IMG/VR virus record: IMGVR_UViG_2687453119_000006
Span: 32,001-96,000 of that record
Origin: a virus
Taxonomy: Duplodnaviria; Caudoviricetes
Strand: one strand, 5' to 3'
Length of the DNA stretch: 64,000 bases
Made by a program: the position numbers and the translations under genes
Shown: positions 31,806 to 59,382 of the stretch, piece after piece
How positions within the stretch are numbered: position 1 is the stretch's first letter
Layout of the letters: each line of letters opens with the position of its first letter
The notes under the pieces: model-generated
Databases searched by the model: none
Told to the model about the DNA's origin: nothing
Seen by the model: the letters and a program-made list of their open reading frames with translations, nothing else

Positions 31806-31880
31806 GTCAGTGTAGCTCAATGGTAGAGCAGCGGCTTCATAAGCCGCAGGTCGTTGGTTCAACTCCTCCCGCTGGCACCA
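31806..31880 (+). tRNA. tRNA with CAT anticodon (Met or Ile2), imperfect T-stem
   Basis: GTCAGTG/CGCTGGC acceptor, TAGCTCAATGGTAGAGC D-arm, GCGGC-TTCATAA-GCCGC, GGTTCAACT, encoded CCA. Confidence 0.8.
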
Positions 31881-36905: not shown

Positions 36906-36979
36906 GACGCGGTGGCCGAGCGGCCAGGCAGCGGACTGCAACTCCGCGGAGGCTGGTTCGACTCCAGCCCGCGTCTCCA
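36906..36979 (+). tRNA. tRNA-Cys (GCA)
   Basis: GACGCGG/CCGCGTC acceptor, GCGGA-CTGCAAC-TCCGC, GCTGG-TTCGACT-CCAGC, U discriminator, CCA. Confidence 0.93.
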
Positions 36980-41262: not shown

Positions 41263-41339
41263 TGGCAAGTAGCTCAGATCGGTAGAGCGCCTCGCTGTTA
41301 ACGAGGATGTCGCAGGTTCGAGTCCTGCCTTGCCAGCCA
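41263..41339 (+). tRNA. tRNA-Asn (GTT)
   Basis: TGGCAAG/CTTGCCA acceptor, CCTCG-CTGTTAA-CGAGG, GCAGG-TTCGAGT-CCTGC, G discriminator, CCA. Confidence 0.93.
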
Positions 41340-51834: not shown

Positions 51835-52050
51835 ATGGCAAAAGCAAAGAACGCGGCCACCGAAGAGGTGGTCGCGGTGGAGCCGCAGGCTCCCGAACCG
51901 GCTCCGATCATGTATGAGGTGACCCTGAACGGTCGCTTCACTCACATGGACTTTCCCTACCTGCCTTCGCATCACCACATCGTCGACAAGGCGATCTACG
52001 ATGCGATGGTCGAAGCGGGGGTAGTTGCCGATGTCAAGCAACTTTCCTGA
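51835..52050 (+). CDS. Hypothetical protein
   Basis: 71-aa ORF in the tail operon. Confidence 0.6.
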   Translation: MAKAKNAATEEVVAVEPQAPEPAPIMYEVTLNGRFTHMDFPYLPSHHHIVDKAIYDAMVEAGVVADVKQLS

Positions 52051-53725
52051 GCTTGTATTCAGCGACGACGAAGACTTCACGGCAGATCGATTGAACTTGG
52101 CGATGCAGGTGCTTGATCAGCGCCTGCGTTCGCTGGAGCCTTTTTCTCCGAGCTGGGAGCAGGCAGTCAACGATCTGCGTCTGGTCGGACTCTCTCGACT
52201 GAACGACGCCATCCTGCCGGCGTATCAGCGCATCCAGCTGCTGTCCACGCTCGGCTTCCTGTTCGCTGGCTCGTCCAGCGAAGTCGCTCTTACCCAGGAC
52301 ATGACCGCGACGTTTGTCATTGACGACGAGACGGAAAAGTCCCTGTTCACCCCGACGCCATTCCTGGCGCTGACCCGCTCCTCGACGATAGATGACTATG
52401 CGATTGCGCAGTTGATCTCGTATGAGCAGGCGACCGGCACCTTGATGGTGAAGGTCAAATCGATCACCGGCAGCCCTGGTCCTTTCACGGACTGGCAGAT
52501 CGGCGCCTGTGCGGCGTCAACCATCGCAGCGATGGCCTACTTCACGCAGATCGATGCGGCCCGCAACGCAGCCAACGTTGCAAAGGCAGCAACAGCTGCC
52601 GACCGCGTACAGACCGGTCTCGACCGCATCCAGACGGGTGTGGATCGGAATGCCGCGGCGCAGTCGGCTGTAGCAGCGTCTGCCTCTGCTGACCGAGCCG
52701 GCACCTGGGATCCGACCAACTACGCCCTCAAGTCGTATGTGGACGGCAAGATCCAAGCGCTGGTCGGCACCGCGCCGGCCACCCTCGACACGCTCGCGGA
52801 AATCGCGGCGCAGATGCAGGCGGACGAGAGCGGCTTTGCCGCGCTGTCCACCACGGTCTCCGGCAAGCTGACGGCAACGCAGAACCTGAACGACCTGACC
52901 GACAAGGCACAGGCTCGCATCAATCTGGGCGTCACTTTCGCCAACCCGACCAGCAAGTCGGGCCTAACGGCGGCGAACGGGTCGGCCGTTACCTACATGC
53001 GGTCTGATGCTGCTCCTGCGATCGACGTTTCGATCGCGCCGACCTGGACCAACAAGCACATCTTCCAGTGGAACTCTGGAGCGACATACTGCATCAACGT
53101 CCAGACCTATGGCGGCTTGACCATCTACGCGCCGGACCAGGGCTCGGCGTTCATGACGTTCCATCGCGGCGCATACGCGAGCCAGTTTGGGCTCGACGGT
53201 GACAACTACTACCGATGGGGTGGTTGGTCGGATGGTGCTGGCGGAGTCCGTATGTACCTGAGCCCTGGTGGCTTGTTGTACAGTGCAGGTTACGGCGCCT
53301 CGACGACGCCTGTTGGTGGTCAGGTGCGCGCGGCCGGCGACATCATCTACGGCCTGTCGGATCAACGTCTGAAGGACGACATCCAGATCATTGAAGATGC
53401 TCTGGAGAAGATCGACCAGCTCGATGGCGTCACCTGGGTTCAGAGCGATCTGGCCCGCGAGGTTGGTGCACCGGTTCAAGACCGTCGCAAGGCCGGTCTG
53501 TTGGCGCAGCAGCTGGAGAAGGTTCTGCCCGAAGCGGTCGGCCTGGCTCCGTTCGACACGAACAAGCTGATGAAGAGCCGTACGGGCTTGAACCTGCTGA
53601 ACATCCAGTACGAGCAGGTTTCTGGTCTGCTGGTGGAAGGCATCAAGGCGCTGAAGCGCAAGAACGAGGCGCTCGAAGACCGAGTCGCACGACTCGAAGC
53701 GATCATCGAGAAGCTGGGGGTGTAA
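52031..53725 (+). CDS. Tail fibre with C-terminal intramolecular chaperone (peptidase S74)
   Basis: APATLDTLAEIA, NLNDLTDK, SDQRLKDDI..ALEKI..GLLAQ and a terminal coiled coil. Confidence 0.9.
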   Translation: MSSNFPELVFSDDEDFTADRLNLAMQVLDQRLRSLEPFSPSWEQAVNDLRLVGLSRLNDAILPAYQRIQLLSTLGFLFAGSSSEVALTQDMTATFVIDDETEKSLFTPTPFLALTRSSTIDDYAIAQLISYEQATGTLMVKVKSITGSPGPFTDWQIGACAASTIAAMAYFTQIDAARNAANVAKAATAADRVQTGLDRIQTGVDRNAAAQSAVAASASADRAGTWDPTNYALKSYVDGKIQALVGTAPATLDTLAEIAAQMQADESGFAALSTTVSGKLTATQNLNDLTDKAQARINLGVTFANPTSKSGLTAANGSAVTYMRSDAAPAIDVSIAPTWTNKHIFQWNSGATYCINVQTYGGLTIYAPDQGSAFMTFHRGAYASQFGLDGDNYYRWGGWSDGAGGVRMYLSPGGLLYSAGYGASTTPVGGQVRAAGDIIYGLSDQRLKDDIQIIEDALEKIDQLDGVTWVQSDLAREVGAPVQDRRKAGLLAQQLEKVLPEAVGLAPFDTNKLMKSRTGLNLLNIQYEQVSGLLVEGIKALKRKNEALEDRVARLEAIIEKLGV

Positions 53726-53726
53726 G

Positions 53727-53960
53727 ATGGCTGTTCCGTCATCTGGCGCTGTCGGCTTCTCGACCGTCAACTCCGTCTTCGGCTACGGCATCGCGATGAG
53801 CAGCTACGTCGGCCGGCCCTACTACTACTACGAAGTGAACTGGGGCGTTAGGTCCGGCACCTTCCCAGGCTCCAACTTCCCGATGTCTCTCTTCTACGGG
53901 AAATCCAACCACGACGAATGGAACTGCGCCTGCGCCTGCGCCTGCGCGTGCGGCAAGTGA
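53727..53960 (+). CDS. Cys-rich fibre-tip-like protein / putative radical SAM substrate
   Basis: Starts 1 nt after the fibre stop; MAVPSSG..MSLFYGKS..WNCACACACACGK. Confidence 0.75.
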   Translation: MAVPSSGAVGFSTVNSVFGYGIAMSSYVGRPYYYYEVNWGVRSGTFPGSNFPMSLFYGKSNHDEWNCACACACACGK

Positions 53961-53966
53961 GGATCA

Positions 53967-54287
53967 ATGACCAAGCCACCGAGCACCACCTTCAGCTACC
54001 GGATCAATCACTGGAGCAAGGACGGCTGGGCTCGAGTCGAGTATCGGCACGAGACGCTCGGTAGCTTGGTCAAGCAGGTCTTCATCCCGCTGAACCATTC
54101 GGAAGAGGAGCAGCGTGGCGCCGTCATCATGCAGTTCCCCTGGCAATCCTTCCACGCCAGGTATCTTGAAATGTTGGCGCAGGCGGCTGCTCCGGCCCCC
54201 GCGGCAATGGAAGGACAATTCACGCACCGCATCGATCGTCCCATGGAGGATCCGGTCGGTTTGCCCATGGAAACCCAAAAGGTGTAG
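53967..54287 (+). CDS. Hypothetical protein (possible fibre chaperone or peptide-binding protein)
   Basis: GAGGA RBS, 106 aa. Confidence 0.65.
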   Translation: MTKPPSTTFSYRINHWSKDGWARVEYRHETLGSLVKQVFIPLNHSEEEQRGAVIMQFPWQSFHARYLEMLAQAAAPAPAAMEGQFTHRIDRPMEDPVGLPMETQKV

Positions 54288-54289
54288 CG

Positions 54290-54835
54290 ATGCAGTTCAG
54301 GCGCATCCGTTTCGAGAACTTCACGATCACGATCTTCACGGCGCATGCCGGCGAAGAGAGGGTCTGTCCTCCGTCTGAACTAACCCGCGGCCTGACCGCG
54401 TCAGACGCTCCGGCCATCGCTCACCTGCTCGAAGGCAAGGATGATGCTCGGCCGCTCCACACCATTCCGGTGTACACCAAGGGCGGCTTCGAGGCTCTCG
54501 GCGGCGATCACGCGCCGGACCCTCGCCCGGCTGGTAGCGGCGCCACTCAGTTCGTGAGGGGCATCGACAACTACAAGCTCCGCGCCACAGCGCCGGATAG
54601 CGAATATCACTGCATCACCCCGAAGAGCAAAGAGCCGGTGTTCTGGCAGCGCTCATTCGTCGGCGGGAAGGCCGGCGACACGTTCGAGGTTCTGCCCAAC
54701 AGCTACCTCTACATCGCAGAGGGCAAGATCGAGCTGGCTCACCAGACGTTCGTCGGCCCCACGATGCTTGAGATCACCAAGCCGCACACGGCCAAGATCA
54801 CCGATCCGGTGATGGGCGCCAAGCTCTGGCGCTGA
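54290..54835 (+). CDS. Hypothetical protein, possibly cupin-like
   Basis: Beta-rich; YLYIAEGKIEL resembles a cupin/pirin strand. Confidence 0.55.
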   Translation: MQFRRIRFENFTITIFTAHAGEERVCPPSELTRGLTASDAPAIAHLLEGKDDARPLHTIPVYTKGGFEALGGDHAPDPRPAGSGATQFVRGIDNYKLRATAPDSEYHCITPKSKEPVFWQRSFVGGKAGDTFEVLPNSYLYIAEGKIELAHQTFVGPTMLEITKPHTAKITDPVMGAKLWR

Positions 54836-54845
54836 AAGGAGCCCC

Positions 54846-55475
54846 ATGCCCACGATCCGCTTCCTGACGCCTGCCGACTTTGGCGATATGTGCGACATCA
54901 TCGACAAGCACAGCAGCGGCATGGGCGCATGGTGCAACGATCCGACCGCCCCGGTGAAACCGAACTTCCGCCAGCTCGCGAAGGACCATGTGGACCTTTG
55001 CTTCGAGCAGGCTATGTCGAACTTCTGGGGCTATTTTGACGACTCCGGCAAGCTCGTCGCCTGGGTCAACTTCACCCGATGGGCTGATCCGATCAACATC
55101 ACCATCCGCTCCGTAATCGAAGATCCGGACGCCGACCTGCCGCGCCGCGATGGCGCTGTCTGGTCGGAAGCCGCGGTCGATCTGGCGAACTGGGGCATGG
55201 GGTACTTCTGGTCGGAGGGCGTCGAGAATTTCTGGTGCCGCATGTATGCCGGCAAAGAGGATCGGCACATCTCGGATCACCCCAACTGCATGCTGACTCA
55301 ATACCAGCGCGAAAGGGTCAAGTTCATCCGGGCCGGCGAGCAACCGCCGCCCGAGTATCGCAGGGTCAGCTGGTCGCCGTTTGACGACGACACAGCGATC
55401 TATCGGTTCTCCGACACATTGCCGCTGCTGGCGTATCTCGAAAGTGCAAATGATCCGACTGGAAATGCTGAGTGA
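54846..55475 (+). CDS. GNAT-fold-like protein
   Basis: TIRFLTPAD N-terminus and FWGYFDDSGKLVAWV; AAGGAG RBS. Confidence 0.55.
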   Translation: MPTIRFLTPADFGDMCDIIDKHSSGMGAWCNDPTAPVKPNFRQLAKDHVDLCFEQAMSNFWGYFDDSGKLVAWVNFTRWADPINITIRSVIEDPDADLPRRDGAVWSEAAVDLANWGMGYFWSEGVENFWCRMYAGKEDRHISDHPNCMLTQYQRERVKFIRAGEQPPPEYRRVSWSPFDDDTAIYRFSDTLPLLAYLESANDPTGNAE

Positions 55476-56748
55476 GAACGGAGAGGTCGTGCCTCTGTTC
55501 TACGATCAGCACACCTCACGTCTGCTCGACAAGGACGGCTTCAAGGCCGTCGACTACACCAACAACCCGATGTATGACCCGGAGCCATCGCAGCGCCGGC
55601 CGTTCATCGCGGTGGACTACGATCAGCCAGGGCGCAAGGTCCGCGAGGTCCGGAAGCTGAAGATCCAGCTCGGCCTCGGCTGCAACAAGTCCTGCTCATA
55701 CTGCCTCCAGGCGATACAGGTTCAGAAGGCCGCGGCGACAAGCACGCGGGATGCGTCGGTATTTCTGGCGAACATCGACGGCTGGATCGTCAACCCGGAG
55801 GGGATGGAGAAGGTCGAGCTGTGGGGTGGCGAGCCGCTGCTCTACTGGAAGAAGATCGAGATCCTCGCCCCGGCGTTGATCGCGAAGTTCCCGAACGCTC
55901 AGTTCTCGATCATCACGAACGGCGAGCTGCTCACTCGAGAGATCGTCGATCAGCTCAAGGCCTGGAATTTCTCTCTGACCATCAGCCATGATGGCCCGGG
56001 GCAGGCGGTAAGGGGAGACGACCCGTTCGAAGACCCTCACAAATTTGCCATGATCCAGTACGCGCAGAAGACGTTTCATCCGCGCTTCTCGTTCAACGCT
56101 GTGCTCACCCCTAAGAGCCACGACGTCAACGCCATCATCGACTGGTTCCACGATTACTTCCCGGGCTGCAACGTCGGCTTCGAGGGAGTCGTTCACAGCT
56201 ACGCCAGCGACCCGGCATCGATCTTCTCGATCGAGCAGCTGGCGCAGTTCAGCGACACGCTGTCCCGACAGCTGGCCGATGGATCGGCTCTCCGATCCCC
56301 CGCGATCATGGACAAGCTGCGCAGGTCGGTGAACTCGTTCGTCAATGAGCAGTCCTCGGAGACGCTGTTCCAGAAGTGCGGCATGGACATGCCGGAGTAT
56401 CTGGCGGTCGACCTGAAGGGCAACGTCATGACCTGCCAGAACGTGGGCGCCAACGGCAACCACAAGATCGGGCACGTCAGCGACTTCGAGAACATCGCGC
56501 TCAACACCTCCAAGCACTGGAGCAAGCGCCCAGAGTGCCAGAGCTGCCCCGTGCTGCAGCTTTGCCAAGGCGCCTGCATGTACCAGGGAGGGGACAACTG
56601 GACGCACAGCTGCAACGCTGAGTTCTTCTACAACCTGGCCTTCTTCAGGGCCGCGCTCTTCATCCTCACGGGACGATGGCTGGTTGGTTTCAGCGGCGAT
56701 ATCGTGCGTCCGAAACTGAAGAAGGATCGCGATGTCGAAGTTCGCTGA
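55450..56748 (+). CDS. Radical SAM enzyme with SPASM domain
   Basis: CNKSCSYC, WGGEPL, ITNG, SHDG; SPASM KCG..GNVMTC..CQSCPVLQLCQGAC..C. Confidence 0.95.
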   Translation: MIRLEMLSENGEVVPLFYDQHTSRLLDKDGFKAVDYTNNPMYDPEPSQRRPFIAVDYDQPGRKVREVRKLKIQLGLGCNKSCSYCLQAIQVQKAAATSTRDASVFLANIDGWIVNPEGMEKVELWGGEPLLYWKKIEILAPALIAKFPNAQFSIITNGELLTREIVDQLKAWNFSLTISHDGPGQAVRGDDPFEDPHKFAMIQYAQKTFHPRFSFNAVLTPKSHDVNAIIDWFHDYFPGCNVGFEGVVHSYASDPASIFSIEQLAQFSDTLSRQLADGSALRSPAIMDKLRRSVNSFVNEQSSETLFQKCGMDMPEYLAVDLKGNVMTCQNVGANGNHKIGHVSDFENIALNTSKHWSKRPECQSCPVLQLCQGACMYQGGDNWTHSCNAEFFYNLAFFRAALFILTGRWLVGFSGDIVRPKLKKDRDVEVR

Positions 56749-57463
56749 ACTGGTGGGGATTCTTGACAAAATACCCCACCTGTTCTTAGAAAAGGCCTAC
56801 GATGCGACACGTCTACAAACTGAGTTAGACGCCATCGATCCGGCACTTTTCGTGCCCTTCCGTTCCAAGAGCAGAAACGCTGACCACATCGCCGAGTTCT
56901 GGCGAGGTCTTTCGCTGGTCGCTCCGAGCGGATCTCTCCATGACGATTTGACCGAGGTTCCATACGAAGGCCGCACAGGCTACGTCTGGACCCCGGTCGC
57001 CGAGAGCAGCCCCTACATCAAGCAGCTCGTGACCGAGCTTGGCGGGGAGGGGCAGCGCGCGCGGCTCATGTGCGTGAAGGCAGGCGGCAGTCTGACCTGG
57101 CACCGCCATGGATCAGAGCTTTCGATGATCGTCGGCGCCCACGGCCGGCGGCCGAACTGGTACGAGCTGATCGTCCACGTCCCCATCCGCACCAACCCGG
57201 ACTTCAGCTACGAGGTCATCGACACTCGGGTCTACGAGCTGGCGGACTACTCGGCCGGGAAGCTGGAGATCCACCGGAAGAACTACCCGAAGGGCGAGGC
57301 CTGGGCGTTCAACGGTGCTCACTACCACAACGTCTTCAACCGCTCCGAGACCGAAGACCGCTACGCCATCATGCTGACCCTCGACATCAGGATGAGGAAG
57401 ACGTTCGACATCGTGTCGAAGGCGGTCGAGAGCTACGAGGGGCCACTCCTGACAGGGCTCTGA
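56732..57463 (+). CDS. Asp/Asn beta-hydroxylase-like Fe(II) oxygenase
   Basis: RARLM..GGSLTWHRH, HVPIRTNP, GEAWAFN..HNVFN..EDR. Confidence 0.8.
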   Translation: MSKFAELVGILDKIPHLFLEKAYDATRLQTELDAIDPALFVPFRSKSRNADHIAEFWRGLSLVAPSGSLHDDLTEVPYEGRTGYVWTPVAESSPYIKQLVTELGGEGQRARLMCVKAGGSLTWHRHGSELSMIVGAHGRRPNWYELIVHVPIRTNPDFSYEVIDTRVYELADYSAGKLEIHRKNYPKGEAWAFNGAHYHNVFNRSETEDRYAIMLTLDIRMRKTFDIVSKAVESYEGPLLTGL

Positions 57464-57464
57464 A

Positions 57465-57887
57465 ATGGAAACCATCATCTCCGCGAAGCCGCCCGACGTG
57501 CTCGCGGACAACTTCATTGTCGCCACGAACGAAGACTGGGTTCGTGAGTGGCAAATCAAGAACAGCGGCGTGATCGTCCCGATCCAGCCCGACTGGAAGC
57601 TGTACATGCAGCTGCAGCGGACATCGACCGGCGATCTCGGCGTGACGTGCTCTACCGACAATGGCCGCCTCGTGGTCGTCGATCAGGGCGCCGGCAAGTT
57701 CGGTCTCAGGCTGAAGCAGGCGGACGCCGCCCAGATCAGCCCTGCGGGCTACCAATATGACATCGTCCTCGTTGCTGGCGATGGCATCTACCGCCTGGTG
57801 ACAGGCACCATCACGGTCGACCAGGGGATCACCAACATCCCCGGCCAGGAGAAGTGGATTCACTATCCGCTGATCCTTCGACCGTAA
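57465..57887 (+). CDS. BppU/LtfC-like beta-sandwich tail adaptor
   Basis: YQYDIVL..YRLVTGTITVDQGIT. Confidence 0.65.
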   Translation: METIISAKPPDVLADNFIVATNEDWVREWQIKNSGVIVPIQPDWKLYMQLQRTSTGDLGVTCSTDNGRLVVVDQGAGKFGLRLKQADAAQISPAGYQYDIVLVAGDGIYRLVTGTITVDQGITNIPGQEKWIHYPLILRP

Positions 57888-57940: not shown

Positions 57941-57954
57941 GTTTGGGAGAACCC

Positions 57955-59382
57955 ATGACTCTGCAATACCTGCACGGCATCGAGACGATCGAACTCGACA
58001 GCCCCTCCGGTCCGGTTGAGACCGTCAAGTCGAACGTGATCGGCTTGGTCGGTACCGCCCCGGACGCCGACCCGGACCTCTTCCCGCTCAACACCCCGGT
58101 TCCGGTGTTCGCTGACGCGCTTAAGGCGGGCCAGCTCAAGTCGACCGGCACGCTGCTCGACGGCGTCGACGCCATCTACAGCCAGAAGTCGGCTGTGATC
58201 GTGGTCGTCCGCGTCGCCGAAGGTGAGTCCCAGGAAGAGACCTGGTCCAACGCGGTCGGCTCGCCCTCCGGCAAGACCGGCGTCTGGTCGCTGCTCAAAT
58301 CGCGCCCGATGCTCAAGGTCATTCCGAAGCTCCTGGTCGCCCCCGGCATGACCTCGGGTCGTCCGACCAACGGCGTCAAGAACCTCGTCATCGGCGACGA
58401 CGGTGAGGACTACGTGCTCGCCAGCACGACCCTGACGATCGCTCCTCCTCCGGCCGGCGGCCGACAGGCGAAGGCGGTCCCGCAGGTTGTCGGCGGCAAG
58501 CTGACCGGCGCAATCATCACCGATCCTGGCTTCGGCTACCTCACGCCCCCGGCTGTGACGATCGGCGGCGTTGGCACTGGCGCAGCCGTGACGGCCACCC
58601 TCGGCCACGTCGCCAACCCGGTCGGCGTCTCGCTCGCCTCGATCGTTGACCGCCTGCGCGCGGTGGCGATCCTCGATGGCCCCGGCACGACCTACGAAGA
58701 TGCGATCGAGTATCGCAACGACTACGGCAGCCAGCGCATCTCGATCGTCGACCCCGGCGTCCTGAGCTGGAACACCGAGAACTCCGTCTACGTGACCAAG
58801 CCTGCCTCGGCCTACGCGGCCGGTATCCAGGCGCGCGTCGATGAGGAGAAGGGCTTCTGGTACTCGTTCTCGAACGAGCTGATCCAGAACATCGGTGGAC
58901 CCGCCCGTCCGGTCGACTTCATGCCGAACGACCGCGACTGCGAGGCGAACATCCTCAACATGAACCAGGTCACCACCATCATCCACGATGATGGCTTCCG
59001 GTTCTGGGGTCTGCGCAACACCGGGCAGGAGGCTCTCTGGGCTCAGCTGTCAGTGCGTCGCACCGCGGACATGATCTACGAGAGCCTGGAGCGCGCTGAG
59101 CGTCCGCGCCTCGACAAGCCGTTCAGCTACGCGCTGCTCGACGGCATCACCGAGGACGTGAACGCCTACCTCCGCTTGCTCAAGTCTCGCGGCGCCCTGA
59201 TCGGCGGCGAGTGCTGGATCGACAAGAACGTCAACACCCCGGCGACCTTCGCCGCTGGTGAGCTGACGGTCGACTTCGATCTGGAGCCCCCGGCCTGCTT
59301 GGAGCACCTCCAGTTCCGCGCCCGTCGCAACCCGAAATACTACAACGACTTCATCGAAGAGTTCAGCCGTCAGCTGGCGTAA
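57955..59382 (+). CDS. Tail sheath protein
   Basis: YLHGIETIE, VIGLVGTAP, GFRFWG.R, VRRTAD. Confidence 0.95.
   Translation: MTLQYLHGIETIELDSPSGPVETVKSNVIGLVGTAPDADPDLFPLNTPVPVFADALKAGQLKSTGTLLDGVDAIYSQKSAVIVVVRVAEGESQEETWSNAVGSPSGKTGVWSLLKSRPMLKVIPKLLVAPGMTSGRPTNGVKNLVIGDDGEDYVLASTTLTIAPPPAGGRQAKAVPQVVGGKLTGAIITDPGFGYLTPPAVTIGGVGTGAAVTATLGHVANPVGVSLASIVDRLRAVAILDGPGTTYEDAIEYRNDYGSQRISIVDPGVLSWNTENSVYVTKPASAYAAGIQARVDEEKGFWYSFSNELIQNIGGPARPVDFMPNDRDCEANILNMNQVTTIIHDDGFRFWGLRNTGQEALWAQLSVRRTADMIYESLERAERPRLDKPFSYALLDGITEDVNAYLRLLKSRGALIGGECWIDKNVNTPATFAAGELTVDFDLEPPACLEHLQFRARRNPKYYNDFIEEFSRQLA

What the first reader, a model, noticed from the sequence alone, without database searches (positions are those of the whole stretch)
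53727..53960. 77-aa protein that looks like a fibre-tip adaptor fused to a (Cys-Ala)n core
Seen: the ORF starts 1 nt after the fibre stop and ends in five Cys in CxCxCxCxC register, encoded by TGCGCC x3 + TGCGCG + TGC. Recalled pattern: MxxPSSG..S...FG...S.FYGKS resembles small proteins found directly after S74-chaperone fibres, by analogy with T-even gp38 adhesins. Inference: the 'leader' is a structural docking domain, so the modified or metal-binding Cys core would be displayed at the fibre tip. The in-frame hexamer repeat could vary the Cys number by slippage. Alternatively the Cys array binds metal or an Fe-S cluster without crosslinking.
Basis: partly seen in the sequence, partly recalled or inferred. 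Interest (0 to 1): 0.8.

Follow-up and report, generated by a model that had tools for sequence, protein, structure and literature searches.

The report
Cysteine-tailed tail-fibre protein with radical SAM partner
This small phage gene encodes a tail-fibre add-on protein whose tail of alternating cysteines is very probably modified by a radical SAM enzyme encoded nearby, a pairing that recurs across many unrelated phages and that I could not find described.

Summary
In detail: 53727-53960(+) starts 1 nt after the stop of an S74-chaperone tail fibre and ends ...HDEWNCACACACACGK.

- **Conservation.** All 22 close homologues keep the Cys register, while the residues between the cysteines vary (A/D/N). 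The conserved unit is therefore (x-Cys)n, not (Cys-Ala)n.
- **N-terminal part.** The first ~60 aa form a widespread phage domain. It heads proteins encoded directly after tail-fibre genes, including isolates JC1, MinM2 and Pasto. Some of these proteins are Gly-rich and weakly gp38-like.
- **Link to the enzyme.** Relatives of the radical SAM/SPASM enzyme 1.5 kb downstream were found in 51 viral loci. In 40 of them a same-strand gene ends in an (Asn/x-Cys)n tail, or carries that tail just before a self-cleaving Hint or S74 module. These genes belong to at least ten unrelated carrier proteins.
- **Reverse search.** Searching for NCNCNCxC gave 37 C-terminal tails, 28 of them with the enzyme in the fetched DNA.

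Best reading: a fibre-tip docking domain carrying an enzyme-modified Cys tail. The chemistry is probably thioether cross-links, but this is unproven. Slippage-driven variation is not supported.

Ten literature searches found no description of the pairing. Earlier notes of this scan flagged the cassette on this same genome only.

The parts
52025..53725 (+). Tail fibre (566 aa) with a C-terminal S74 intramolecular chaperone. The conserved cleavage Ser445 lies in YGL|SDQRLK, so the mature fibre is probably residues 1-444.
   Evidence: Pfam Peptidase_S74 9.9e-14; tail-fibre PHROGs; alignment A5 with S445 invariant.
53727..53906 (+). N-terminal domain of the 77-aa protein (residues 1-60). It is a small alpha/beta domain shared with proteins encoded right after tail-fibre genes, and is the presumed fibre-docking module.
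   Evidence: Profile search, 79 hits; AF2 with a 57-sequence alignment gives pLDDT 69-83 over residues 1-60; gene order in JC1, MinM2, Pasto and L307.
53910..53924 (+). Conserved H-D-E-W-N junction motif (residues 62-66) directly before the Cys tail.
   Evidence: D63, E64, W65 and N66 are invariant in 23 sequences. (D/N)EWN is kept in remote small relatives at 30-50% identity.
53925..53960 (+). Cys tail C-A-C-A-C-A-C-A-C (residues 67-75), then G-K and the stop. This is the presumed target of the radical SAM/SPASM enzyme.
   Evidence: (x-Cys)n tails co-occur with relatives of the enzyme.
53967..54287 (+). 106-aa protein of unknown function. It was detected only in the close Bradyrhizobium-type relatives.
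   Evidence: No Pfam, NCBIfam or PHROG hit; synteny.
54290..54835 (+). 181-aa protein of unknown function, part of the cassette in close relatives.
   Evidence: hhalign finds no link to accessory families of other cassettes.
54846..55475 (+). 209-aa protein of unknown function, part of the cassette. By eye, a similar-looking ORF follows the small gene in remote locus L307.
   Evidence: The L307 likeness was judged by eye and not scored.
55450..56748 (+). Radical SAM/SPASM enzyme (432 aa from the ATG at 55450; the longer TTG frame starts at 55381). It has CX3CX2C and the seven SPASM cysteines.
   Evidence: Pfam Radical_SAM 3.2e-10; NCBIfam SPASM domain TIGR04085 at 39.8 bits against a cut-off of 27; phrog_1802 5.1e-55; invariant Cys in A4.
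56732..57463 (+). 243-aa protein with a weak likeness to Asp/Asn beta-hydroxylases. It is a possible second tailoring enzyme.
   Evidence: Pfam Asp_Arg_Hydrox E 0.0026, 18 bits, below the 22.6 cut-off; conserved next to the enzyme in close relatives.
57465..57887 (+). 140-aa protein resembling a tail-fibre assembly protein. It closes the fibre module before the sheath gene (57943-59382).
   Evidence: phrog_1084 1.8e-9; phrog_3304 'L-shaped tail fiber protein assembly' 5.4e-6.

Best explanation
The 77-aa gene encodes a two-part tail-fibre accessory protein of a Bradyrhizobium-type provirus.

Residues 1-60 are a small folded domain that docks the protein on the fibre encoded just upstream. This is inferred from homology and gene order.

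Residues 62-77, (D/N)EW-N-(C-x)4-C-G-K, are the substrate of the radical SAM/SPASM enzyme encoded 1.5 kb downstream. This is inferred from a conserved gene pairing across many unrelated phages.

The enzyme most likely uses the cysteine thiols to make thioether cross-links, within one chain or between chains. The result would be a covalently stapled, protease-resistant tip that stays on the virion. This chemistry is assumed by analogy with other Cys-rich SPASM substrates and is not shown.

In other phages the same kind of tail sits in cis at the end of the fibre itself. In some it is exposed only after a Hint or S74 module cuts itself off. Here it is supplied in trans by a small adaptor protein.
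For: **Real and conserved gene**
-.

**N-terminal domain**
- It is a family: 79 hits.
- It folds with moderate confidence (pLDDT 73.8 overall, 69-83 for residues 1-60), while the tail is disordered in the monomer model.
- Genes with this domain begin at the stop of a tail-fibre gene in JC1, MinM2, Pasto and L307. The JC1 and MinM2 fibres carry S74 chaperones.

**The enzyme**
- It is a full SPASM radical SAM belonging to a mainly viral group (phrog_1802; atlas clusters 70-100% viral).

**Forward test**
- 51 viral loci hold a relative of the enzyme at 33-84% identity.
- 36 of them have a same-strand ORF of at least 50 aa ending in CxCxC. The opposite strand, used as control, gives 6.
- 4 more carry the tail just before a Hint or S74 domain.
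- Of the remaining 11, 5 lack upstream DNA, 3 have variant Cys-x tails, and 3 have none.

**Reverse test**
- 80 loci were fetched with the DNA pattern for NCNCNCxC. 37 have the motif at the C-terminus of an ORF of at least 60 aa, and 28 of those hold the enzyme.
- 8 of the 9 without it have under 2.5 kb of downstream DNA.
- Only 2 of the 43 other hits hold the enzyme.

**Chance controls**
- 0 of 52 chance pattern hits in genomes and 0 of 76 in metagenomes have the enzyme.

**Carriers**
- The carriers are unrelated to one another: 77-96-aa proteins, 616-aa collagen-like fibres (phrog_5073 1.8e-48), and the JWF gp028 fibre with a Hint domain (Pfam 3e-12). The tail is the only feature they share.

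**Nearest named families**
- These are Cys thioether formers: PapB 1.2e-20, QhpD 4.3e-18, CcpM 1.2e-16. All are below their cut-offs.

**No sign of a released peptide**
- Pfam, NCBIfam and PHROGs name no protease or exporter among the cassette genes.
Against: - There is no direct evidence that the protein is in virions or is modified.
- The complex predictor was not available, so docking on the fibre is untested.
- The N-domain model has no significant match to any solved structure, including gp38.
- 3 of the 46 enzyme loci that could be assessed (L046, L051, L060) show no Cys-x tail. The enzyme family may therefore have other substrates.
- Many loci are near-duplicates, and the reverse set was selected by the motif itself.
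- The chemistry is open. All NCBIfam hits lie far below their cut-offs. The closest solved relative by sequence (8vpo, 3.2e-9) appears in a paper on cyclopropyl synthases, judged from the search listing only. CteB is weaker (2.4e-5).
- Most tails have Asn between the cysteines (167 of 298 positions), whereas this one has Ala.
- The accessory genes of this cassette have no detectable relatives in the other cassettes.
Confidence: 0.6

Rival explanations
1. The pairing is the same but the chemistry differs. The radical SAM/SPASM enzyme would modify the tail without making thioethers. Candidates are oxidation of Cys to formylglycine (as anaerobic sulfatase maturases do), epimerisation of alternate residues, or a carbon-carbon cross-link involving the conserved Trp. 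The 2OG-oxygenase-like neighbour might act as well.
For: - The best solved relative by sequence (8vpo) is cited in a paper on cyclopropyl synthases (listing only).
- NCBIfam also lists the anaerobic sulfatase maturase (3.2e-11) and the cyclophane formers YhhB and AmcB (2.1e-10, 1.5e-8).
- JWF's depositors named its homologue an anaerobic sulfatase-maturating enzyme.
- W65 is invariant.
- The strict alternation of the tail would suit an enzyme that acts on every second residue (my own inference).
Against: - The strongest family likenesses are to Cys thioether formers.
- The cysteines, not Trp or the x residues, are the only feature shared by all tails.
- Trp is absent before most tails in other phages.
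Confidence: 0.22
2. The alternating cysteines bind metal ions or an iron-sulfur cluster at the fibre tip, or form disulfides after lysis, with no enzymatic cross-linking. The radical SAM enzyme would then have another job.
For: - CxC repeats are typical of metal-thiolate proteins, and T4 gp37 uses HxH repeats to bind iron along its needle (both recalled, no call).
- The tail is disordered in the monomer model.
- 3 enzyme loci have no tail nearby.
Against: - The two-way co-occurrence of tail and enzyme across unrelated carriers is hard to explain without an enzyme-substrate relation.
- SPASM enzymes are, as far as is known, peptide or protein modifiers (established knowledge of the family).
Confidence: 0.12
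3. The protein is a free RiPP precursor carried by the prophage as a moron. The N-terminal part would be a leader, and the modified Cys core would be released as a bacteriocin or signal rather than built into the virion.
For: The architecture (leader-like N-terminus, Cys-rich C-terminus, SPASM enzyme, extra tailoring-like genes) looks like a RiPP cluster.
Against: - The family searches name no protease or exporter in the cassette.
- The cassette lies between the fibre gene and a fibre-assembly-like gene, inside the tail operon.
- The 'leader' is a folded domain shared with 150-535-aa tail-associated proteins.
- The same tails sit on genuine fibres.
Confidence: 0.05
4. The TGCGCC hexamer repeat is a slippage-prone tract that varies the number of cysteines between virions (phase variation).
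For: Three perfect hexamer copies are present. Relatives with six Cys exist, for example NCACACDCACACSK.
Against: - Contigs from 4 runs of 4 studies carry the identical repeat with no indel. Contigs can hide rare variants.
- In 22 homologues the tail varies by substitution at the x positions, and the DNA repeat is not conserved.
Confidence: 0.03

Closest known systems
Radical SAM/SPASM thioether systems acting on Cys-rich peptides: SCIFF/CteB, PapB ranthipeptides, QhpD acting on QhpC
   Same: A SPASM radical SAM enzyme is encoded beside a short Cys-rich target. The best NCBIfam likenesses are PapB 1.2e-20, QhpD 4.3e-18 and CcpM 1.2e-16, and CteB (5wgg) is matched at 2.4e-5.
   Different: - All scores lie far below the family cut-offs.
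- The target motif is a strict x-Cys alternation at a protein's C-terminus.
- The carriers are tail-fibre proteins or fibre add-ons.
- No protease or exporter was found.
- The N-terminal parts of the carriers are unrelated, so a common leader is unlikely.
T-even gp38 adhesin on the gp37 fibre tip (phage S16; recalled)
   Same: A separate gene directly after the distal fibre gene. Long members of the N-domain family are Gly-rich and hit phrog_2056 'tail fiber protein; host specificity' (7.2e-8, 5.4e-7) and Pfam GP38 below its cut-off (4.8e-4, 20.5 bits against 25).
   Different: - The 77-aa protein has no Gly-rich receptor-binding domain.
- It has no Pfam or PHROG hit itself.
- Its model has no significant structural match.
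- The upstream fibre is an S74-chaperone fibre.
HxH iron-binding needle of the T4 gp37 fibre tip (recalled)
   Same: An alternating ligand-type residue (His there, Cys here) at the far end of a fibre.
   Different: The T4 needle is not known to have an associated modifying enzyme, and the residue differs. Metal binding here is untested.
NxxC peptides and NxxcB, which makes a beta-thioether between Cys and Asn (recalled)
   Same: Asn and Cys form the recurring pair. N precedes the first Cys in 59 of 73 tails, and N is the commonest x residue.
   Different: The spacing differs (N-C directly adjacent), the setting is a phage structural protein, and this window's tail has only one Asn.
Radical SAM gene cassettes in the host-recognition cluster of pelagimyophages (PMC7029224), and dioxygenase/tail-collar gene neighbourhoods (PMC2938197). 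I read matching passages only.
   Same: Radical SAM cassettes, and Asp/Asn beta-hydroxylase-type genes, have been noticed beside tail-fibre genes.
   Different: The passages I read name no substrate, no Cys-x tail and no function.

Membership tests
Radical SAM/SPASM enzyme (the partner at 55450-56748) | CX3CX2C radical SAM motif | tested here: met
   C101-x3-C105-x2-C108 (numbered from the TTG frame) is invariant in the window, JWF and RSP15; Pfam Radical_SAM 3.2e-10.
Radical SAM/SPASM enzyme (the partner at 55450-56748) | SPASM domain with seven cysteines for two auxiliary clusters | tested here: met
   TIGR04085 at 39.8 bits against a cut-off of 27. C333, C352, C386, C389, C395, C399 and C411 are invariant.
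Ranthipeptide / sactipeptide RiPP system | Cys-rich core peptide encoded beside the maturase | tested here: met
   Five Cys within the last 11 residues, about 1.5 kb upstream of the enzyme gene on the same strand.
Ranthipeptide / sactipeptide RiPP system | The enzyme scores above the cut-off of a named maturase family | tested here: not met
   Best is PapB at 74.1 bits against a cut-off of 340. All 25 families shown (of 40 matched) are far below their cut-offs.
Ranthipeptide / sactipeptide RiPP system | Leader peptide that is removed and a product that is exported (protease or transporter in the cluster) | tested here: not met
   Pfam, NCBIfam and PHROGs report no protease or transporter family for the genes from 53967 to 57887. 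The N-terminal part is a folded domain shared with long tail-associated proteins.
Ranthipeptide / sactipeptide RiPP system | Thioether cross-links in the product | not testable with these tools
   This needs mass spectrometry.
SCIFF (six cysteines in forty-five residues) precursor | Match to the precursor family model | tested here: not met
   The 77-aa protein has no NCBIfam hit at E up to 0.01.
T-even gp38 adhesin | Gene directly downstream of the distal fibre gene | tested here: met
   It starts 1 nt after the fibre stop.
T-even gp38 adhesin | Sequence or fold match to gp38 | tested here: not met
   The 77-aa protein has no Pfam or PHROG hit. Foldseek against the PDB gives 0 hits at E up to 0.001. 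Only long relatives give sub-threshold GP38 hits.
T-even gp38 adhesin | Glycine-rich receptor-binding domain | tested here: not met
   It is absent from the 77-aa protein. It is present in long relatives such as P0035, P0045, P0053 and JC1 gp60.
N-terminal 'after-the-fibre' domain family (unnamed, defined here) | Profile match over the first ~56-60 residues and a position right after a tail-fibre gene | tested here: met
   The profile was built from this protein's own relatives, so its own match is by construction. Independent members are JC1 gp60 (1.1e-9), the L042 carrier (4e-6) and MinM2 gp12 (tblastn 8e-10). For gene order.
Phage (x-Cys)n fibre tail paired with a phrog_1802 enzyme (unnamed, defined here) | At least three alternating Cys at the mature C-terminus, with the enzyme on the same strand within 7 kb | tested here: met
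   The window has five alternating Cys, with 2 residues before the stop and the enzyme gene about 1.5 kb downstream. The same pattern holds in 40 of 51 enzyme loci.

The most novel reading that the evidence does not exclude
Many unrelated phages display an (Asn/x-Cys)n tail at the far end of their tail fibres. The tail may be in cis, in cis but unmasked by a self-cleaving Hint or S74 module, or in trans on a small adaptor as in this window. In each case a dedicated, mainly viral radical SAM/SPASM enzyme cross-links or otherwise rewrites it. This would be a RiPP-type modification of a virion receptor-binding structure, and a new substrate class for SPASM enzymes.
Probability: 0.5. Interest if true: 0.9.

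Novelty: new variant of a known kind. Interest (0 to 1): 0.8.

Why it matters
Radical SAM/SPASM enzymes are known as makers of small secreted peptides. Here the target appears to be part of a virus particle, at the point where the phage touches its host.

If confirmed, this would add a chemical layer to host recognition or to tip stability. It would explain the radical SAM cassettes that have been noted, without explanation, in phage host-recognition regions. It would also provide a very short, portable tag, (x-Cys)n, together with its enzyme. The question can be tested directly by co-expression and mass spectrometry.

Tried and rejected
- **Profile too divergent.** The search for related loci with the diverse small-protein alignment A3 failed because no stretch was conserved enough. 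I used degenerate DNA patterns instead.
- **Narrow strict motif.** The strict (D/N)EWNCxCxC pattern found only Bradyrhizobium-type relatives plus chance hits: viral 6 real of 10, genomes 2 of 54, metagenomes 4 of the 80 fetched. The gene neighbourhoods of most of the ~17 remote small homologues therefore remain unseen. L264 and L307 have only about 400 nt downstream.
- **First structure model.** The AF2 model from the 23-sequence alignment was poor (pLDDT 49.5).
- **Fold searches.** Foldseek against the PDB and BFVD gave nothing significant. The best BFVD row was a 'phage tail protein' at E 0.88.
- **Accessory genes.** Pairwise BLASTP and hhalign found no link between the window's 106-, 181-, 209- and 243-aa proteins and the accessory genes of JWF, RSP15 or other cassettes.
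- **Accessory genes of other cassettes.** PHROGs gave nothing for the small carriers tested and, for the ~250-300-aa accessory family tested, only one weak pectate-lyase hit (3.9e-5) in one of three members.
- **Protein atlas.** It gave only unnamed viral clusters for the 77-aa protein (scores 0.89, a lead only).
- **Expression.** No RNA holder is listed for this stretch.
- **Literature.** None returned a paper describing alternating Asn/x-Cys tails on fibres or a role for this enzyme. The library lacks most subscription journals, and supplements are closed, so a description elsewhere cannot be excluded.
- **Papers checked.** In each paper I looked at passages matching my search terms only. 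PMC12801897 and PMC7159879 were irrelevant. PMC9959647 and PMC9228384 had no match. PMC2938197 and PMC7029224 were partly relevant. For PMC10878394 I saw the search listing only.

Full report
**What is in the sequence.** The fibre ORF 52025..53725 ends in TAA. One base later, the ATG at 53727 opens a 77-aa ORF that ends at 53960. Its end reads N-C-A-C-A-C-A-C-A-C-G-K, encoded by TGCGCC x3, TGCGCG, TGC. The upstream protein is a tail fibre with an S74 intramolecular chaperone (Pfam 9.9e-14; PHROG tail-fibre families). The conserved cleavage serine is S445. The window lies in a 114.5-kb virus record classed as a provirus, estimated 94% complete. Close relatives are named Bradyrhizobium.

**The gene is real, and the cysteines are what is conserved.** A search of 5.8 billion proteins returned 23 candidates.
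- 22 are full-length homologues of 72-82 aa at 62-83% identity.
- One (P0023) shares only the first ~25 residues, and I dropped it as a chimera.
- In the 23-row alignment, D63, E64, W65, N66, C67, C69, C73, C75 and K77 are invariant, and C71 is nearly so.
- The residues between the cysteines change (A, D, N, M, T).
- Most tails have five Cys. Some have six (NCACxCDCACACSK), and two have an interrupted array.

The conserved unit is therefore (x-Cys)n after a DEWN junction. The Cys-Ala hexamer repeat is a local peculiarity.

**A two-part protein.** A profile of the family, scored against 1.84 billion representatives, gave 79 proteins at E up to 0.001. I read 57 of the 77 new ones. They fall into two classes.
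- About 17 are small proteins (69-111 aa, 30-50% identical) that keep both the N-terminal part and a (D/N)EW-N-C-x-C... tail with 2-5 Cys.
- The others are 116-535 aa long and share only their first ~56 residues with the profile. Many then continue into Gly-rich sequence.

Other observations on these relatives:
- P0038 joins the N-domain, a DEWNCACACDCVCAC tail and a weakly Hint-like region whose Pfam hits are below their cut-offs.
- Two small relatives carry a Gly-rich tail in place of the Cys tail.
- Long members hit phrog_2056 'tail fiber protein; host specificity' (7.2e-8, 5.4e-7) and Pfam GP38 below its cut-off.

**The N-domain goes with fibres.** The gene carrying this domain starts at or just after the stop of a tail-fibre gene in three isolated phages.
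- In Burkholderia phage JC1, gp59 is an S74 fibre, and gp60 (N-domain plus Gly-rich region) starts 2 nt after it.
- Synechococcus phage MinM2 also has an S74 fibre upstream.
- In Bradyrhizobium phage Pasto the fibre has no S74 match. Its N-domain was seen only by tblastn at 2e-3.
- In metagenome locus L307, a remote Cys-tailed relative overlaps the end of an S74-type ORF.

With a 57-sequence alignment, AlphaFold gives a moderately confident small alpha/beta fold for residues 1-60 (pLDDT 69-83). The tail is of low confidence (64, then 47). Foldseek finds nothing significant in the PDB or BFVD, so membership of the gp38 family is not supported. The position and the partner genes do fit a fibre-tip add-on.

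**The enzyme.** The ORF at 55450-56748 has the radical SAM motif and a full seven-Cys SPASM domain. It belongs to phrog_1802 (5.1e-55). Its nearest atlas clusters are mostly viral. Its best named likenesses are Cys thioether formers (PapB, QhpD, CcpM), all far below their cut-offs. By sequence, its closest solved chains are 8vpo (3.2e-9) and CteB (2.4e-5).

**The key result is a conserved pairing.** Homologues of the enzyme in the isolated phages JWF and RSP15 also sit beside fibre genes.
- The JWF fibre gp028 reads ...NCNCDCNCNCS followed by a Hint domain.
- The RSP15 side fibre ends in NCQCGN.

*Forward test.* An alignment of the three enzymes retrieved 51 viral loci at 33-84% identity.
- 36 have a same-strand ORF of at least 50 aa ending in CxCxC. 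The opposite strand, as control, gives 6.
- 4 more (L023, L055, L062, L045) carry the tail directly before a Hint or an S74 chaperone, so self-cleavage would leave it at the new C-terminus.
- Of the other 11:
  - 5 lack upstream DNA.
  - 3 have variant Cys-x tails (L042, L054, and L061, which is RSP15).
  - 3 have none (L046, L051, L060).

*Reverse test.* The DNA pattern for NCNCNCxC hit at least 120 viral stretches, and 80 loci were fetched.
- 37 have the motif at the C-terminus of an ORF of at least 60 aa, and 28 of these contain the enzyme.
- 8 of the 9 without it have under 2.5 kb of downstream DNA.
- Of the 43 other hits (short AT-rich frames, and an unrelated small Cys-rich family), 2 contain the enzyme.

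*Chance controls.* None of the 52 chance hits in genomes or the 76 in metagenomes has the enzyme.

*Caveats.* Many loci are near-duplicates. The reverse set was chosen by the motif.

**The carriers are diverse.** This diversity is the stronger argument, because the tail is the only feature the carriers share.
- The 77-aa type described here.
- 85-96-aa proteins.
- Three tandem ~90-aa genes.
- Four tandem 170-200-aa genes.
- 616-aa collagen-like fibres (phrog_5073 1.8e-48).
- Fibres of about 310-330 aa.
- Fibres fused to a Hint domain.

**Anatomy of the tails.** Across 73 distinct tails found next to an enzyme (a count that includes the motif-selected loci):
- The longest alternating run has 3-9 Cys, most often 5.
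- The residues between the cysteines are N 167, A 40, D 39, R 18, with others rare.
- The residue before the first Cys is N in 59 of 73.

The tail is always at, or one cleavage away from, the C-terminus.

**Other cassette genes.** The 106-, 181-, 209- and 243-aa genes of this window were detected only in the close relatives. Other cassettes carry different accessory genes.
- One is a ~250-300-aa family present in 30 loci.
- Others are proteins weakly like 2OG-Fe(II) oxygenases (PF13759, below its cut-off).
- The window's 243-aa protein is weakly like Asp/Asn beta-hydroxylases.

Oxygenase-like partners therefore recur, but the conserved core is the tail plus the enzyme.

**How it most likely works.**
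- Shown: the gene, its conservation, the domain family, the gene order, and the tail-enzyme pairing.
- Inferred: the N-domain docks on the mature fibre, the enzyme recognises the tail itself (because the carriers share nothing else), and the modified protein stays on the virion (no protease or exporter was found).
- Assumed by analogy: the cysteines act as thioether donors.

Formylglycine formation, epimerisation of alternate residues, Trp cross-linking, or plain metal binding are not excluded.

**Slippage.** Contigs from 4 runs of 4 studies carry the same repeat with no indel. Contigs can hide rare variants. Five- and six-Cys forms exist among relatives, but nothing points to rapid variation.

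**Prior knowledge.** Ten full-text searches found no description of the tail or of the enzyme's role. Two papers, of which I read matching passages only, note radical SAM cassettes in pelagimyophage host-recognition clusters and dioxygenase neighbourhoods that include tail-collar proteins. Neither names a substrate in those passages. Earlier first-stage notes of this scan flagged the same cassette on this genome, and I used them only as leads.

**Limits.** The complex predictor, the contig look-up and one fold library were unavailable. No experiment bears on any of this.

Noticed in passing
window 36906-36979 and 41263-41339 (also 31806-31880): The provirus carries three tRNA genes: Met(CAT), Cys(GCA) and Asn(GTT). 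Cys and Asn are the two residues that make up most (Asn-Cys)n fibre tails in related systems. This may be coincidence.
   Followed up: partly
L006 1454-1918 / L017 4405-4869: One close relative has two tandem copies of the small gene. The second (72 aa) ends ...NNEWACACDCNCNCGK.
   Followed up: partly
L015 390-1121 and L238 (minus strand, between the 181-aa and 209-aa homologues): Some close relatives have an extra ~243-aa gene with His-box motifs (HKLHH), reminiscent of membrane desaturases or hydroxylases. This suggests variable oxidative tailoring. No family search was run on it.
   Followed up: no
L045 5654-6379: A fibre-like ORF placed after the enzyme reads ...NCNCNCNCDCLF followed by SDDRLKDKI, an S74 chaperone start. 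Auto-cleavage would therefore expose the Cys tail as the new C-terminus.
   Followed up: partly
L054 6253-6759: A distant relative of this phage (752-aa protein 35% identical, sheath 31%) has a 169-aa gene right after the enzyme, with ...CQCDCVCACECQCDCLC... followed by a Gly-rich region.
   Followed up: no
L071-L074, L081, L097, L115, L136: A separate family of small viral proteins begins ...KCKNCNCNCHC... and holds further Cys motifs. No radical SAM gene is present in the fetched DNA. It seems unrelated to the fibre tails.
   Followed up: no
L024 4339-5244 and 29 other loci, including RSP15 gp047: A ~250-300-aa protein family with no Pfam hit accompanies the enzyme in 30 loci but is absent from this window. 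Among the PHROG searches, only one weak hit (pectate lyase, 3.9e-5) appeared, in one of three members tested.
   Followed up: partly
window 53918-54064: A 48-aa ORF in another frame (MELRLRLRLRVRQ...) is produced by the same hexamer repeat. It is most likely an artefact of the repeat.
   Followed up: no
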